Shown here piece by piece: positions 1-4,344 of a DNA stretch of 4,825 nt. How positions within the stretch are numbered: position 1 is the stretch's first letter; each line of letters starts with the position of its first letter. The notes under the pieces are model-generated. The model worked only from the letters and a program-made list of their open reading frames with translations. It was not told the DNA's origin and did no database searches. The DNA is from a virus. Its lineage: Duplodnaviria > Heunggongvirae > Uroviricota > Caudoviricetes. Made by a program: the position numbers and the translations under genes. The stretch lies in IMG/VR virus record IMGVR_UViG_3300029006_000023, positions 1 to 4,825 of that record; one strand, written 5' to 3'.

Positions 1-2068
1 CCGTCAGGGTGTATTCCCCGAGCGGCAGGCCACTGAAACGGTGCTCCGTGTCTGCAGTGATAGCGGTGGTCACCAGACGGCTGTCTTCACCGCTTCCGCT
101 GGTCAGTCGCAGACTGAAGCGCACGCCCTTCACCACCCGCGGCGTGTCCCATTTCGCCTGCGCCAGATACTGGCCGTCAGCGGCGCTCACCTCCACCGTA
201 AGGTGCTGCACTGCCGGTGGGATGACGCTGTTCAGGGTGCCTGACTGCGGCTCAAAGCTGGCCCCGTTATCCACGATGGCTTCTTTTTCCGGCACATGCT
301 GCACTGCCGTGATGGCAAAGGTGCCGTCCGTGTTTTCCCGGATGGAGACACAGCGGAACAGGCGACGACGCAGTGACGGCAGGGAGAGTCCCCACACCCC
401 GTATGTCTCCACACCATCCGGCAGGGTACTGACCTGTATCCGGTCCGGCGCGGGGTGTGCAGTGATGTCCACGCTCACCGGCTTACCGCTGCCGTTAATC
501 AGGTTCACCGTCGAAGTACCTGTCTCTGGCAGGCTCACCTCACGGTCCAGTGTCAGGGTGCGGCTGGCGGCATCAATGGACAGGATGCGTCCGCCGGTCA
601 TGGTCCCGGCATAGTCGTTATCACAGATTTCAATAATGTCACCGGGTGTGTGACGCAGCCCCTGTGACCCGAGCGTGAAATCCACCGTCTGCGTTTCCAG
701 CAGTTCGGTCTTTATCACCCACAGCCCGGCACGGTGGGCCTGACCGCGACTGGTGCAGCCGAACGCATCCATCTTCAGCAGGTTGCGCCCGTAGCGCAGT
801 ATGGCGTCCGGGTCTTCCACCAGTTCCGTGGAGGTCTGCCAGCCGTTCTGCGGGTCGGTGTAATTCACCTCCACCGCCGTGTGACGGTCCTTCAGGGCAC
901 TGAAGCTGTAGCGGAACCCCACGCCGTTATCATCCACCACCACATCGCTGTTGGTGTACGGCCACACCACATCCGACGGGCGGTCCTGAACGAACGTCAG
1001 CGTCTGGCCGTTCCATACCGGCATACAGCGCATCGCCGAGCAGAAATCACTGAGGACGTCCCACGCCTTACGCTGTTGTGACAGGTACGCATTAAAGGTC
1101 ATCCGCGGCTCTGTGCCCCCGAAACCATCCGGGACCATCTGGTCGCAGTACTGCCCGATGGCATACAGCGCCCATTTGTCCACATCCGCCGCCCCCAGGC
1201 GTTTTCCCATTCCGTAACGCGGATGAGTCAGCATGTCCCACAGGCACCAGGCCGGGTTGTTGCTGTATGCCGGTTTCAGGCTGCCGTCCCAGATGCCGCT
1301 GTAAGTGCGTTTTTCCGGGTCATAGTTTGACGGCACCTGGATGATGCGACCGCGGATATGGTAGTTCACCGTCATCTGCTGACCGCCAAACTGCTCCGCA
1401 TCCACCTGCAGGCCCACAATCGCCGTGTTCGGGTAGCACTGTTTCACATCGATGATTTCGGTGTATGACGACCACAGCGTCTTATTCTGCAGCTGGTCCG
1501 TGGTGCTGTCCGCCGTCTCCCGGACCATCCGGATGTTAAAAGGACGCTCAGGCAGGTTATCCAGAATCACCGACGCCAGAAACTGCGAGGTGGTCTTGCC
1601 ATTAATGGTGACATCCTTTTCCGTCACCCAGTTACCGTTACGCTGTAACTGAATCAGCAGCCGGACAGAAGCCGGATTACGGTCACCCTCTGACGTGGTC
1701 TGCACCAGTGACTGCACCCCGAAGGTGACCCGCAGGCGGTCAATGTTCGCGGACGTAATGGTGCGCGTCACCGGCTTTGCCTTCGTCACTTCCACGCCCA
1801 GTGCGGTTTCAGCTCCGGAGGACTCAAAGCCTTCGGGTGGTGTCTGCTCCTGCTCCCCGGCGCGCCAGACCGCGGTCACACCGTGTATCACGGGATTACC
1901 GTCCGTGTCCGTCAGCGGGGTTTTGTTCACCAGAATACTCTGCAGTCCCTTCACCGGACCTTCAATCGGCCCTTCACCAATGGCGTCAATCACGCTCATC
2001 ATCTGCGTGGACTTAAGATTGTCCTTTGCCTCAACCGGCGTGTGCGCCTTGCCGCCACCTTTGCCCAC
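1..2068 (-). CDS. J: Tail tip / central tail fibre host-specificity protein J, N-terminal ~689 codons (partial; 3' end lies beyond window start)
   Basis: Not in the ORF track because it runs off the window. My manual minus-strand translation from GTG (complement of 2066-2068) gives VGKGGGKAHTPVEAKDNLKSTQMMSVIDAIGEGPIEGP..., continuing with no stop to position 2. It matches my recollection of the lambda J N-terminus (MGKGSSKGHTPREAKDNLKSTQLLSVIDAISEGPIEGP...) and contains conserved blocks such as CYPNTA, WCLWDMLTHPRYGMGKRLG, DAFGCTSRGQAHRAGLW and AITAVQHVPEKEAIVDNG. An in-frame TGA lies 25 codons upstream of the GTG. An alternative in-frame GTG exists at 2083-2081. Confidence 0.9.
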   Translation of the reverse strand, partial: MGKGGGKAHTPVEAKDNLKSTQMMSVIDAIGEGPIEGPVKGLQSILVNKTPLTDTDGNPVIHGVTAVWRAGEQEQTPPEGFESSGAETALGVEVTKAKPVTRTITSANIDRLRVTFGVQSLVQTTSEGDRNPASVRLLIQLQRNGNWVTEKDVTINGKTTSQFLASVILDNLPERPFNIRMVRETADSTTDQLQNKTLWSSYTEIIDVKQCYPNTAIVGLQVDAEQFGGQQMTVNYHIRGRIIQVPSNYDPEKRTYSGIWDGSLKPAYSNNPAWCLWDMLTHPRYGMGKRLGAADVDKWALYAIGQYCDQMVPDGFGGTEPRMTFNAYLSQQRKAWDVLSDFCSAMRCMPVWNGQTLTFVQDRPSDVVWPYTNSDVVVDDNGVGFRYSFSALKDRHTAVEVNYTDPQNGWQTSTELVEDPDAILRYGRNLLKMDAFGCTSRGQAHRAGLWVIKTELLETQTVDFTLGSQGLRHTPGDIIEICDNDYAGTMTGGRILSIDAASRTLTLDREVSLPETGTSTVNLINGSGKPVSVDITAHPAPDRIQVSTLPDGVETYGVWGLSLPSLRRRLFRCVSIRENTDGTFAITAVQHVPEKEAIVDNGASFEPQSGTLNSVIPPAVQHLTVEVSAADGQYLAQAKWDTPRVVKGVRFSLRLTSGSGEDSRLVTTAITADTEHRFSGLPLGEYTLT

Positions 2069-2072
2069 GGAA

Positions 2073-2080
2073 TCCCCCTT
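2073..2080 (-). promoter_or_regulatory. Shine-Dalgarno for J (AAGGGGGA on minus strand), 4 nt upstream of GTG start
   Basis: Minus-strand sequence reads gaagggggattccGTG; purine-rich SD at appropriate spacing. Confidence 0.5.
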
Positions 2081-2109
2081 CACTGTCCGCTGCCGGACAC
2101 TGTTGATGT

Positions 2110-2141
2110 ACAAAAACAACAGGCACCCCGGAGAGTGCCTG
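2110..2141 (-). terminator. Terminator-like hairpin oriented for the minus strand, ~40 nt upstream of J start
   Basis: Plus-strand caggcac (2120-2126) and gtgcctg (2135-2141) form a 7-bp GC-rich stem with an 8-nt loop. On the minus strand the stem is followed by UUGUUUUUGU (complement of 2110-2119). Function not established. Confidence 0.4.
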
Positions 2142-2179
2142 CATCATGACGGAATAAAAATTCTGAATATCTTCACATT

Positions 2180-2207
2180 TTCACAAACAGCCTGTGGCGC
2201 TTATAAT
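2180..2207 (+). promoter_or_regulatory. Candidate sigma70 promoter on plus strand: -35 TTCACA (2180-2185), 16-nt spacer, -10 TATAAT (2202-2207)
   Basis: Perfect consensus -10 hexamer, -35 matching TTGACA at 5 of 6, spacing 16 nt. Sits in an AT-rich island and is preceded by a tandem TTCACA-TTT-TCACA repeat (2172-2185). Predicted start around 2214-2216. Confidence 0.5.
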
Positions 2208-2213
2208 TTCACC

Positions 2214-2312
2214 GCGCTAATGTTTTTTTGCCCGAGTAACAGAAACAAAAATAACTCCTTAACGTTAATCTTTGTCTGTCCCCGCAGCTCCGCAACTCTG
2301 CGGGATTTTTTT
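2214..2312 (+). ncRNA. Candidate small non-coding RNA (~100 nt), antisense to the tail late operon, in the I-J intergenic insertion
   Basis: Bounded by the promoter above and the intrinsic terminator below. The only ATG (2221) opens a frame with no SD that reads through the terminator without a stop. Contains six consecutive A-R-N triplets (AAC AGA AAC AAA AAU AAC, 2238-2255) and ends in a GC stem plus U7. Confidence 0.4.
2281..2312 (+). terminator. Rho-independent terminator on plus strand
   Basis: cccgcag (2281-2287) pairs with ctgcggg (2298-2304), 7-bp GC-rich stem with 10-nt loop; alternative 5-bp stem ccgca/tgcgg with 4-nt loop. Followed by a single A and then TTTTTTT (2306-2312). On the minus strand the stem is followed by gacagac, not a U-tract, so it is unidirectional. 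Confidence 0.6.
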
Positions 2313-2318
2313 ATGCTT

Positions 2319-2999
2319 TTACCCCTGCCGCCCGATAACCACCACCTTCCCGCCAGCGCCTTCATCACGGGTGCTGACGTCCTGGGATATTCGCCGGGAG
2401 CCAACCAGCATTTCACCGTAAGGCACCGGCATCGGATTACCCTGGGCAATCATGTTATCCAGCGACGAAAAGTAGGTGTTCTGTTTACCGTTATCCGTTG
2501 CCCTGTATTCCGGTGTTTTGGGCTTCGGGGCAAGCATCTGAGCCACACCACCCAGAATCATGCTGGCCCCCAGTGAAAACAGCATCGTGGTGGCAGAAAA
2601 ACCACCGGCTGCCAGGGCTGAACCCCATAACGCCATTGATGCCCCGGCCGTGAAGAACGACCCCACGATGGCCGCCGCCCCCAGCACAATCTGCAGTCCG
2701 CCCTTTCCGGCTCCGGCCAGTCGCGGCACAATGTGGATGACCGTTCCCTCACCCAGTTGTTCGTGAAGACGGGCGTACACCGCCTCCGGTGCCGTGTCCT
2801 CACCGCGAATACGTATCTGGTACCAGCCTTCGTTCATCTGACGGCGGAATCCCGGCATCTGCATCGACAGGGCGCGAATGGCTTCCGCTGCCGTGTTCAC
2901 ATACAGGCTGAGGCGGCGGCCAAATCGTTGTAAATCCCCGTGAAGGCAGATGCGTGCCAGTGGCGGTGACGCCAGACAGAATGCGTTCGTCGTTGCCAT
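2319..2999 (-). CDS. I: Tail tip assembly protein I
   Basis: 226-aa ORF (MATTNAFCLASPPLARICLHGDLQRFGRR...NGKQNTYFSSLDNM...VVVIGRQG) closely resembling lambda gpI as I recall it. Hydrophobic Gly/Ala-rich central segment. Start overlaps the K 3' end by 103 nt out of frame, as in lambda. Upstream GAGAGG could serve as SD. Confidence 0.9.
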   Translation of the reverse strand: MATTNAFCLASPPLARICLHGDLQRFGRRLSLYVNTAAEAIRALSMQMPGFRRQMNEGWYQIRIRGEDTAPEAVYARLHEQLGEGTVIHIVPRLAGAGKGGLQIVLGAAAIVGSFFTAGASMALWGSALAAGGFSATTMLFSLGASMILGGVAQMLAPKPKTPEYRATDNGKQNTYFSSLDNMIAQGNPMPVPYGEMLVGSRRISQDVSTRDEGAGGKVVVIGRQG

Positions 3000-3645: not shown

Positions 3646-4344
3646 TTACTGCGAAAGTTTATTAATGGAAAGGAAACCGCCAAAATTGCCGACATTGTTG
3701 CGCATCTCACACCCGCGCATGCACTTGCTGCATTTGTCCTTTGTGATATCGGACGTCGGCTGGTCATACTCATCCGCCACCGCCCCGCCCGTGTAACCAC
3801 ACTCATCAGAGCGGTAGGTCCACATACAGGTGTTCGCCAGCATGATGCGACCGGGAAACAGCGCCCCGTCCGTCTCCGTCGGCGTGGCCAGCACAAACGA
3901 GGCCGTCATGGCCGTCAGCTCTGACATCTGCTCCACCACCCAGCGGTCGGTCAGCTCCTGCTCCGGGTCTGCCTCAGGATTGCCTGCCACAAAGTTCACC
4001 GCATCCAGAAAACGCGCATACACCCGACGGCGGACCACCGTGGCCCCCACCAGACTCTGCAGGTCCTCCGCCATACCGGTGACAAGACCGAACAGATTGG
4101 ACACCGTCAGCGACGGTCTGGCACTGCTGCCCTTCCCGTTCATCTCAAAGCCGCTGCCCTCAATCGGGTACGCCTCATACTTCCGCCCCTGCCAGGTCAC
4201 CGGCTCCCCTTTTTCATTCAGCTCATTGCAGAAAAAATACCGCTCACCGCCCTGCACCGTCAGGTCGATTTCCCAGAGCACCACCCGCGGTGACTGCTCT
4301 GATTTCACCGACTCATTCAGACTTTCTTCATGAATATCCTGCAT
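3646..4344 (-). CDS. L: Minor tail protein L
   Basis: 232-aa ORF (MQDIHEESLNESVKSEQSPRVVLWEIDL...CSKCMRGCEM...) matching lambda gpL in length and sequence as I recall it. C-terminal cysteine cluster (ECGYTGG...DKCSKCMRGC). Start ATG overlaps the M stop (TGATG). Confidence 0.93.
   Translation of the reverse strand: MQDIHEESLNESVKSEQSPRVVLWEIDLTVQGGERYFFCNELNEKGEPVTWQGRKYEAYPIEGSGFEMNGKGSSARPSLTVSNLFGLVTGMAEDLQSLVGATVVRRRVYARFLDAVNFVAGNPEADPEQELTDRWVVEQMSELTAMTASFVLATPTETDGALFPGRIMLANTCMWTYRSDECGYTGGAVADEYDQPTSDITKDKCSKCMRGCEMRNNVGNFGGFLSINKLSQ

What the first reader, a model, noticed from the sequence alone, without database searches (positions are those of the whole stretch)
2214..2312. Candidate sRNA is fully antisense to the I-J intergenic part of the late tail mRNA
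Any plus-strand transcript from this promoter is perfectly complementary to ~100 nt of the late operon mRNA between the I stop and the J translation start. Pairing would not cover the J SD (2073-2080), but it could create an RNase III substrate or alter coupling between I and J, and so modulate tail-fibre protein dosage. It would be a cis-antisense regulator of a structural gene junction.
Basis: inference. Interest (0 to 1): 0.45.

Follow-up and report, generated by a model that had tools for sequence, protein, structure and literature searches.

The report
PasB-family prophage sRNA gene
The candidate is a real small-RNA gene, a diverged copy of the Hfq-dependent prophage sRNA PasB that sits between tail genes I and J, and what is known about its relatives points to action on other transcripts in the lysogen rather than control of tail protein J.

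Summary
On the + strand, a near-consensus sigma-70 promoter (TTCACA-16-TATAAT, 2180-2207) and an intrinsic terminator (2281-2312) bracket a ~99-nt unit. It lies wholly inside the 250-nt gap between the I stop (2321-2319) and the J start (2068) of a lambdoid tail operon on the - strand.

The unit is not new. It is a positional and sequence homologue (85% over the module, 82% over the transcribed part) of PasB. PasB is an 83-nt sRNA of EPEC E2348/69, confirmed by Northern blot and stabilised by Hfq, and it occupies the same I-J gap. The Hfq-bound RNAs EcOnc22/23/24 of EHEC Sakai also lie in I-J gaps.

In EPEC lysogens PasB is abundant while I and J are nearly silent. It has 37 RIL-seq partners, none of them I or J in the part of the table held.

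Across 15 diverse copies, conservation is mosaic: an upstream operator-like site, the -10, a pyrimidine-rich CUCCUU motif and the terminator. One copy is intact in a prophage remnant without usable I or J.

The best reading is a trans-acting, Hfq-dependent sRNA carried as an inserted, self-contained gene (a moron). Its antisense relation to the late mRNA comes from its position. A cis effect on J is untested and unsupported, but not excluded.

The parts
2156..2180 (+). Conserved upstream element AAAAATTCTGAATATCTTCACATTT. It contains the inverted repeat TCTGA-N6-TCACA (2162-2177), which resembles a CRP site. It is probably a regulator binding site or UP-like element of the sRNA promoter.
   Evidence: This is the most conserved block of the module in 15 diverse copies: AAAnnnTCTGAnnnTnnTCACATTT is invariant and mean column entropy is 0.21 bits. 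It matches the CRP half-sites AAATGTGA/TCACATTT at 14 of 16 positions, judged from my own knowledge of the consensus. Binding was not tested.
2180..2207 (+). Sigma-70 promoter: -35 TTCACA (2180-2185), 16-nt spacer, -10 TATAAT (2202-2207).
   Evidence: 11/12 match. An equal match arose in 3 of 300 shuffles. The -10 is conserved across the family (entropy 0.27 bits), while the -35 and spacer vary (0.83 bits).
2214..2312 (+). Predicted primary transcript of the PasB-family sRNA, about 99 nt. If the 5' end matches the published PasB end, a mature form of about 84 nt would start near 2229.
   Evidence: Homology to PasB of E2348/69 (NC_011601 1466343-1466261, 83 nt, Northern-verified). The transcribed part is 81.7% identical. 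The TSS is inferred from the position of the -10.
2223..2229 (+). 5' U7 run, conserved in the family. The published PasB 5' end maps to its last U.
2238..2254 (+). Variable A-rich stretch (AACAGAAACAAAAAUAA, A-R-N type repeats). It carries a 6-nt insertion relative to PasB. It is a candidate contact for the distal face of Hfq.
   Evidence: Alignments A1 and A5; entropy 1.07 bits. ARN motifs as Hfq distal-face sites are described in PMC4104026. The Hfq contact is inferred.
2253..2272 (+). Conserved single-stranded core AACUCCUUAACGUUAAUCUU. It includes CUCCUU (2255-2260), which resembles the anti-Shine-Dalgarno sequence. It is the candidate seed.
   Evidence: Entropy is 0.50-0.56 bits against about 1.07 on both sides. 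RNAalifold predicts it unpaired. [quoted passage not shown]
2281..2312 (+). Intrinsic terminator and Hfq-binding module: stem CCCGCAG/CUGCGGG, a 10-nt loop, A, then U7.
   Evidence: It is the only structure conserved in the family. It matches the PasB Northern probe region except in the loop.
2319..2999 (-). Tail assembly gene I (stop TAA at 2321-2319). Its stop lies 6 nt beyond the end of the sRNA terminator.
1..2068 (-). 5' part of tail tip gene J (GTG 2068-2066, SD 2080-2073), open to the end of the window.
2109..2142 (-). Late-strand hairpin (10-bp stem, 4-nt loop) followed by UUGUUUUUGU, between the sRNA module and the J SD. It is an ancestral feature of the I-J gap and not part of the module.
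   Evidence: dG -19.3, z -4.1. Lambda has a hairpin of different sequence plus a U run at the same position in its 60-nt gap.

Best explanation
Window 2156-2312 (+) is a self-contained sRNA gene (a moron). It was inserted between the stop codon of tail gene I and the ancestral I-J hairpin of a lambdoid prophage. It is a diverged member of the PasB family, which includes EPEC PasB and very probably EHEC EcOnc22/23/24.

Shown: the promoter and terminator are present, the unit is homologous to PasB and sits at the same locus, and conservation across the family is mosaic.

Taken from published work on the homologues: the RNA is made in lysogens from its own promoter, is about 83-85 nt, depends on Hfq for stability, and is found ligated to many core-genome and accessory-genome transcripts on Hfq.

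Inferred: the sRNA binds Hfq through its terminator and U tail, and perhaps through its A-rich stretch. It uses the conserved single-stranded CUCCUU / GUUAAUCUU core to pair in trans with mRNAs, probably around ribosome-binding sites. It thereby adjusts host and accessory gene expression while the prophage is dormant. Its promoter is probably controlled through the invariant TCTGA-N6-TCACA site.

The perfect complementarity to the late tail mRNA follows from where the gene was inserted. During induction, the more likely direction of any cis effect is that head-on late transcription and the abundant late mRNA silence or titrate the sRNA, not that the sRNA sets J dosage.
For: Anatomy.

Identity:
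- PasB lies at NC_011601 1466343-1466261 (-), between I (ends 1466255) and J (starts 1466496) of prophage PP6.
- The whole gap aligns at 88% column identity. The module is 84.6% identical and the transcribed part 81.7%.
- The PasB Northern probe matches the window terminator apart from the loop.

Expression and Hfq dependence of homologues:
- PasB is Northern-verified and Hfq-dependent.
- Its baseMean is 482 and 1082, against 4.8 for I and 15 for J. Its log2FC in delta-hfq is -6.8 and -2.4. It has 37 interactions and is RNA2 in 99-100% of chimeras.
- EcOnc22/23/24 are Hfq-CRAC peaks. EcOnc22 gave a Northern band of ~85 nt and was destabilised in delta-hfq.
- These three peaks lie in the I-J gaps of Sakai Sp15, Sp14 and Sp11, antisense to the tail genes.
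- With the coordinate offset measured at AgvB1 (+137 to +146), the two peaks mapped this way (EcOnc22 and EcOnc23) fall on the sRNA body.

Family signature:
- The body is unstructured and only the terminator is conserved as a structure.
- The entropy profile is mosaic.
- Tandem arrays of 2 to 3 or more modules share the promoter element but differ in the body.

Independence from I and J:
- An intact module sits in an IS-riddled remnant with fragmentary I and J.
- J is annotated as frameshifted in the 100%-identical UTAK-6 prophage.
- Zhu et al. note that PasB often lies outside recognisable prophages.

Insertion: lambda has only the hairpin in a 60-nt gap.
Against: No expression data exist for this particular variant. 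It differs from PasB by a 6-nt insertion and a 4-nt deletion in the body, so its targets may differ.

No validated target or seed exists for PasB itself. No common target motif was found for it, and its function is 'not elucidated'.

The promoter-predicted length (about 99 nt) exceeds the published 83-85 nt, so either the TSS or a processing step is unresolved.

The remap of the EcOnc peaks rests on an offset measured 0.2-1 Mb away.

RIL-seq was done on uninduced cells, so it could not have seen pairing with the late mRNA.

The CRP-like reading of the upstream site is pattern matching only, and a centre near -44.5 fits no canonical CRP class.
Confidence: 0.7

Rival explanations
1. The sRNA acts in cis on the late tail mRNA. 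The ~99-bp duplex is cut by RNase III, or otherwise changes the I-J junction, and so tunes J (and downstream) protein dosage during lytic growth.
For: Perfect complementarity over 2214-2312. After a cut, the I-proximal fragment would end in the complement of the sRNA terminator hairpin, and the J-proximal fragment would begin just upstream of the strong hairpin at 2142-2119. Both arrangements could stabilise the fragments, which is inference. There is precedent in lambda OOP RNA and cII, from my own knowledge.
Against: The target is essentially absent when the homologue is expressed: I and J have baseMean 5-15 against 482-1082 for PasB. The duplex ends 134 nt from the J SD. No translational coupling is possible across a 250-nt gap that contains a hairpin and ends in an independent SD. 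The body shows conserved motifs, and tandem paralogues have different bodies, neither of which a cis-only role needs. The module is retained where I and J are decayed. Q-modified late transcription from a strong late promoter should greatly outnumber the sRNA, which is inference.
Confidence: 0.1
2. The cis relation works in the reverse direction. On induction, head-on late transcription occludes the sRNA promoter, and the abundant late mRNA sponges and co-degrades the sRNA. This switches off the lysogen-specific sRNA programme. It is compatible with the best explanation, as an added layer.
For: The geometry is convergent, and the late operon must read through the sRNA promoter and gene. The sRNA terminator does not terminate in the late direction, because an A run precedes that hairpin on the late strand. 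RNA sponges of sRNAs are established in this system, for example AgvB and AsxR.
Against: There are no data on PasB levels after induction. The effect could be a passive by-product without selective value.
Confidence: 0.15
3. The promoter-like and terminator-like sites are chance or relic sequences, and no functional RNA is made from this copy.
For: There is no direct expression evidence for this variant. This exact allele is rare: only 1 of the 1796 matching records reaches 99% identity or more. The prophage's J is annotated as a pseudogene in UTAK-6.
Against: The promoter matches 11/12, which is rare in shuffles. All family-conserved elements are intact in this copy. Homologues are expressed.
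Confidence: 0.03
4. The gap encodes a small protein. This would be either a late-strand ORF behind the SD-like UAAGGAG (the complement of CUCCUUA) or an ORF within the sRNA.
For: UAAGGAG on the late strand is followed by TTG or ATG at 5-12 nt in most copies.
Against: ORF lengths range from 0 to 23 codons, with different frames and unrelated peptides, and the ORF is absent in 3 of 15 copies. The + strand ATG at 2220 has no SD, has no stop before the terminator, and is GTG in PasB.
Confidence: 0.02

Closest known systems
PasB sRNA of EPEC O127:H6 E2348/69 (Pearl Mizrahi et al. 2021, PMC8550237; Zhu, Shabalina and Storz 2026, bioRxiv 10.64898/2026.05.13.724894)
   Same: Same locus (I-J gap of a lambdoid prophage) and same antisense orientation. 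Same upstream element, -10, 5' GCGYUA and U run, CUCCUU core, terminator stem and U7. The module is 84.6% identical.
   Different: The window copy has a 6-nt insertion (AACAGA) in the A-rich stretch, a 4-nt deletion upstream of the terminator, and a different terminator loop. The transcribed part is only 81.7% identical. This exact allele was seen in 1 of 5426 complete E. coli genomes. Its expression, Hfq dependence and targets have not been measured.
EcOnc22/EcOnc23/EcOnc24 of EHEC O157:H7 Sakai (Tree et al. 2014, PMC4104026, Table S2)
   Same: They are Hfq-crosslinked RNAs on the strand antisense to the tail genes, inside the I-J gaps of Sp15, Sp14 and Sp11. EcOnc22 gave a Northern band of ~85 nt and was destabilised without Hfq. 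The Sakai module shares the upstream element, the core motif (CUCCAUA) and the terminator.
   Different: The module is about 70% identical to the window copy. Its -35 is poor (TTCCGG) and its -10 is AATAAT. The exact peak position depends on an inferred NC_002695.1 to .2 coordinate offset. The published tables do not link them to PasB.
Lambda OOP RNA (cis-antisense to cII; RNase III-dependent). From my own knowledge.
   Same: A short phage transcript with its own promoter and terminator, fully complementary to a phage mRNA on the other strand.
   Different: OOP overlaps the 3' coding end of its target and is co-expressed with it. Here the overlap is purely intergenic, the homologue is expressed when the target is silent, and it is Hfq-dependent with many trans partners.
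AgvB/AsxR anti-sRNAs of EHEC prophages (Rfam RF02702, RF02703)
   Same: They are prophage-borne, Hfq-binding short RNAs with A-R-N motifs, carried as morons.
   Different: They lie 3' of PR' and not in the tail operon, and are 51-60 nt long. The Rfam models do not hit the window, although they do hit the Sakai control locus. No GcvB or FnrS sponge evidence exists for PasB.

Membership tests
PasB sRNA family | Encoded in the I-J intergenic gap of a lambdoid prophage, antisense to the tail operon | tested here: met
   Window gap 2069-2318. PasB lies between I (ends 1466255) and J (starts 1466496) on the opposite strand.
PasB sRNA family | Sequence homology to PasB of E2348/69 | tested here: met
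   88% column identity over the gap. Module 84.6% and transcribed part 81.7% identical. The probe sequence matches outside the loop.
PasB sRNA family | [quoted passage not shown] | tested here: met
   Stem 2281-2287/2298-2304 plus U7. This is the only structure conserved in the family.
PasB sRNA family | Transcript of about 83 nt seen by Northern blot and RNA-seq | tested here: inconclusive
   The promoter geometry predicts about 99 nt (2214-2312). The published PasB 5' end corresponds to about 2229, giving about 84 nt. No RNA data exist for this allele.
PasB sRNA family | Hfq-dependent stability and many Hfq-mediated trans interactions | not testable with these tools
   Known only for the homologues.
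cis-antisense regulators of the lambda OOP type | Full complementarity to an mRNA from the opposite strand | tested here: met
   This is trivially true from the position.
cis-antisense regulators of the lambda OOP type | Overlap with a functional part of the target (coding end, RBS) or a demonstrated processing site | tested here: not met
   The overlap is confined to a non-coding spacer. It ends 6 nt after the I stop and 134 nt before the J SD. No conserved late-strand ORF was found.
cis-antisense regulators of the lambda OOP type | Co-expression with the target and an RNase III-dependent effect | not testable with these tools
   In EPEC lysogens the target is nearly silent while PasB is abundant. 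Induced cells have not been examined.
AgvB/AsxR anti-sRNA family | Match to RF02702/RF02703, position 3' of PR', length 51-60 nt | tested here: not met
   No Rfam hit at E<=1 in the window, while the models detect AgvB1 in the Sakai control. The position and size differ.
CRP-activated promoters (for the upstream element only) | TGTGA-N6-TCACA site centred at -41.5, -61.5 or similar | tested here: inconclusive
   TCTGA-N6-TCACATTT is invariant in 15 copies. It matches the consensus half-sites at 14/16 positions. The centre lies 32.5 bp upstream of the -10, about -44.5, which is off the canonical spacing. Binding was not tested.

The most novel reading that the evidence does not exclude
The I-J gap of lambdoid phages may be a dedicated cassette site. 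It would hold one to three or more PasB-type sRNA genes that share one invariant operator (TCTGA-N6-TCACA, possibly CRP) but carry different seeds. Their obligatory antisense position would be functional. Late transcription and the late mRNA would erase the lysogenic sRNA programme at induction. Alternatively, the sRNA/late-mRNA duplex would be processed by RNase III to uncouple the stability of the J-distal mRNA from the head-proximal part. Either way, nutrient state would be linked to tail-tip gene output.
Probability: 0.1. Interest if true: 0.55.

Novelty: new member of a known kind. Interest (0 to 1): 0.25.

Why it matters
The value lies in clarification. Its published behaviour is that of a trans-acting lysogen sRNA.

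Four smaller points are worth keeping:
- The family is larger and more diverse than the close PasB variants catalogued so far. I found 3876 places in 1787 of 5426 complete E. coli genomes, against 1158 reported PasB hits.
- PasB and EcOnc22-24 appear to be the same locus family, a link the published tables do not make.
- Some phages carry tandem arrays of these modules.
- An invariant CRP-like operator suggests how the family is regulated.

No target or function of PasB is yet known, so the cis question is still open for anyone working on induced lysogens.

Tried and rejected
- AgvB. My first recollection was that this might be the anti-GcvB sRNA, because of the CA-rich stretch. I rejected it: AgvB lies 3' of PR', is 51-60 nt long, and its Rfam model does not hit the window.
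- Rfam at E<=1. The only hit was a chance match to an HCV element, elsewhere in the window.
- A genome-contig scan with TCTGAANNNCTTCACATTT.
- A conserved structure in the sRNA body. The single-sequence MFE is not better than shuffles (z -1.35), and RNAalifold keeps only the terminator.
- Terminator covariation. The divergent modules have a longer stem in a different register, so the alignment is out of register and I did not count pairs.
- A late-strand small ORF behind UAAGGAG. It is not conserved.
- A minus-strand promoter that would use the 2142-2119 hairpin as its terminator. The scan found none and neither did inspection.
- duplexfold of the sRNA body against 25 translation-initiation regions of the prophage and its neighbours. 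Nothing stands out (best z -1.5, for J). The first attempt timed out.
- PasB's RIL-seq partner list. The table is held in about 40 parts and the find tool shows only the first rows, so individual targets were not extracted.
- The supplement of Sy et al. 2020, sought for TSS data. It is not held.
- A literature search for antisense RNAs in lambdoid tail operons. It found nothing relevant.

Full report
**What the window is.** The - strand carries the distal tail genes of a lambdoid prophage. They are M (4673-4344), L (4344-3646), K (3640-2897), I (2999-2319) and the first 689 codons of J. J starts at GTG 2068-2066, behind the SD AAGGGGGA at 2080-2073. The window is 100% identical to a prophage next to trpA/ompW in E. 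coli UTAK-6, where J is annotated as frameshifted. It is also identical to one IMG/VR contig (L037).

**Check of the observation.** The I-J gap is 250 nt (2069-2318). Lambda has 60 nt at this place.
- On the + strand there is a promoter, TTCACA-16-TATAAT (2180-2207), matching 11/12. A match this good arose in 3 of 300 dinucleotide shuffles of the whole window.
- There is also an intrinsic terminator: stem 2281-2287/2298-2304 and U7 at 2306-2312.
- A transcript from about 2214 to 2312 therefore lies wholly in the gap and is perfectly complementary to the late mRNA. It ends 6 nt from the I stop and 134 nt from the J SD.
The only correction is that J starts at 2068.

**What it is.** Rfam has no family for it. 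My first lead, AgvB, was wrong. The literature tools then identified PasB.
- PasB is one of five 'pathogenicity-associated' sRNAs found by Hfq RIL-seq in EPEC E2348/69. It is 83 nt, lies on the minus strand at NC_011601 1466343-1466261 in prophage PP6, between E2348C_1436 and E2348C_1437, and was confirmed by Northern blot.
- Those two genes are I and J, and PasB lies in their 240-nt gap on the opposite strand.
- The two gaps align end to end at 88% column identity. From the upstream element to the U tail the module is 84.6% identical, and the transcribed part is 81.7% identical.
- The window copy has a 6-nt insertion in the A-rich stretch, a 4-nt deletion upstream of the terminator, and a different terminator loop.
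- The published 5' end of PasB lies 15 nt downstream of the start predicted from the shared TATAAT. Either the RNA is processed or the coverage-based end is approximate.

**A second experimental sighting.** Tree et al. (2014) list EcOnc22, EcOnc23 and EcOnc24 as homologous Hfq-CRAC peaks in Sakai prophages Sp15, Sp14 and Sp11. EcOnc22 gave a Northern band of ~85 nt and was destabilised in delta-hfq.
- All three coordinates fall in the I-J gaps of those prophages, on the strand antisense to the tail genes.
- Their coordinates are in NC_002695.1, whereas the record I could read is version .2. I measured the offset at AgvB1 as +137 to +146.
- With that offset the two peaks I mapped, EcOnc22 and EcOnc23, cover the body of a module that is about 70% identical to the window's.
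- The offset at 2.2-2.9 Mb is inferred, but with or without it the peaks stay inside the gap.
- The PasB paper lists no EHEC homologue for PasB.

**Family anatomy.** The module occurs at 3876 places in 1787 of 5426 complete E. coli genomes, with up to 8 copies per genome. Only 1 of the 1796 matching records reaches 99% identity or more to this allele. The module is also common in Stx phages and IMG/VR contigs.

I aligned 15 diverse copies, several of them not selected by any search pattern. Conservation is mosaic:

| Segment | Mean column entropy (bits) |
|---|---|
| Upstream block AAAnnnTCTGA-N6-TCACATTT | 0.21 |
| -35/-10 spacer | 0.83 |
| -10 | 0.27 |
| A-rich stretch | 1.07 |
| AACUCCUUA | 0.50 |
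| GUUAAUCUU | 0.56 |
| Terminator arms | 0.16-0.21 |
| Terminator loop | 0.94 |

- RNAalifold keeps only the terminator hairpin, and the body is predicted single-stranded. This is the usual build of an Hfq-dependent trans-acting sRNA.
- Zhu et al. likewise place the PasB seed in the single-stranded stretch upstream of the terminator.
- CUCCUU resembles the anti-Shine-Dalgarno sequence, so pairing at ribosome-binding sites is a reasonable inference. It is only an inference.

**The module is an insertion.** Lambda's 60-nt gap contains only a late-strand hairpin plus a U run directly upstream of the J SD. The window has a hairpin of different sequence at the same place (2142-2119, dG -19.3, z -4.1), with the sRNA module between it and the I stop. 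Some phages carry two, three or more modules in tandem.

- *Expression.* In uninduced EPEC, PasB has baseMean 482 and 1082 in the two conditions, while I and J have 4.8 and 15.
- *Hfq behaviour.* PasB drops by log2 6.8 and 2.4 in delta-hfq. It has 37 RIL-seq interactions with core and accessory transcripts and is the 3' partner in 99-100% of chimeras. No I or J chimera is listed in the part of the table that is held.
- *Coupling.* I and J cannot be translationally coupled across a 250-nt gap that contains a strong hairpin and ends in an independent SD.
- *Sequence constraint.* A purely cis-acting antisense RNA needs no conserved internal motifs, yet the family has them. Tandem paralogues keep the promoter element and diversify the body.
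- *Independence from I and J.* In E. coli S1-ESP-03-A the module is intact inside an IS-riddled remnant, where I is a 173-nt pseudogene and J is truncated. J is annotated as frameshifted in UTAK-6. Zhu et al. report that PasB often lies outside recognisable prophages.

None of this excludes RNase III cleavage of a duplex during lytic growth, or promoter interference. Those conditions have not been examined, and RIL-seq on uninduced cells could not see them. If a cis effect exists, I think it more likely runs the other way, with late transcription and the abundant late mRNA silencing or titrating the sRNA.

**Other readings rejected.**
- A late-strand small ORF behind the SD-like UAAGGAG is not conserved.
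- The + strand ATG at 2220 opens no plausible ORF.
- A scan of the sRNA body against 25 translation-initiation regions of the prophage showed nothing beyond shuffles.

**Regulation (speculative).** The invariant TCTGA-N6-TCACATTT matches the CRP half-site consensus at 14 of 16 positions. Several family members have a poor -35, which would fit activator dependence. [quoted passage not shown] Spot 42 is CRP-repressed, which I state from my own knowledge. However, the site centre lies about 44.5 bp upstream of the predicted start, which is not a canonical CRP position. No binding data exist.

**Verdict.** It is a diverged allele of a known sRNA family, not a new kind of element. The proposed cis-antisense control of the I/J junction is unsupported. 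The most likely mechanism is Hfq-dependent trans regulation in the lysogen: about 0.9 for family identity and about 0.65-0.7 for the trans mechanism. Interest is low to moderate. No function is yet known for PasB, so the cis question remains a cheap experiment for anyone studying induced lysogens.

Noticed in passing
window 2109-2142 (- strand); L245 (lambda 15445-15504): There is a strong late-strand hairpin (10 bp, dG -19.3, z -4.1) followed by UUGUUUUUGU, directly upstream of the J SD. Lambda has a hairpin of unrelated sequence plus a U run at the same position in its 60-nt I-J gap. It looks like an ancestral intercistronic terminator or stabiliser of the tail operon, which Q-modified polymerase would read through. 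Its function is unknown to me.
   Followed up: partly
window 2156-2180 (+ strand): AAAnnnTCTGA-N6-TCACATTT is invariant in 15 diverse sRNA modules while the N6 and the -35/-10 spacer vary. It matches the CRP half-site consensus at 14/16 positions, but its centre is about -44.5. It is probably an operator for a dimeric regulator. This was not tested.
   Followed up: partly
L046 about 8150-8900; L246 393-937; L003, L024, L031, L095; L248 213-545: Some phages and E. coli prophages carry two, three or more PasB-type modules in tandem in the I-J gap. Each has the conserved upstream element and its own terminator, but the body sequences differ. In L003 and L248 the J-proximal module seems to lack a good -10. 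The published survey describes Pas genes as usually single per prophage.
   Followed up: partly
L247 393-551 / L251 (E. coli S1-ESP-03-A): An intact module (upstream element, CATAAT -10, body, terminator) survives in a prophage remnant full of IS elements. There, I is a 173-nt pseudogene and J is truncated and separated by transposases. An orphan terminator fragment of a second module lies upstream (L247 285-315).
   Followed up: partly
L121, L122, L252 (Sakai Sp15, Sp14, Sp11 I-J gaps): EcOnc22/23/24 of Tree et al. 2014 map to the same I-J gap locus as PasB and share its module architecture. Neither the PasB discovery table nor the review table makes this link. The exact peak placement depends on an inferred offset between NC_002695.1 and .2.
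   Followed up: yes
L002 2844 versus 2859 (E2348/69); window 2214 versus about 2229: The published PasB 5' end (83 nt) lies 15 nt downstream of the start predicted from the perfect TATAAT, at the last U of the conserved U7 run. Either the sRNA is 5'-processed or the coverage-based end is approximate.
   Followed up: no
window 2079-2100 (- strand): A second small hairpin (CAGUGUCCG-GCAG-CGGACAGUG, dG -12.9, not better than shuffles) abuts the J SD. An 8-nt stretch within it is gapped (absent) in the E2348/69 gap, so it is probably not a conserved element.
   Followed up: partly
L001 8523-12009 (UTAK-6 J): J is annotated as frameshifted in the 100%-identical UTAK-6 prophage, although its first 689 codons (the window part) are open. 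The prophage may be defective while keeping the sRNA gene.
   Followed up: no
L249 300-345: In one variant of the gap (E. coli AR_0017) the usual late-strand hairpin is replaced by a different, symmetrical hairpin flanked by A and T runs, which looks like a bidirectional terminator. The gap is also longer, at 343 nt.
   Followed up: no
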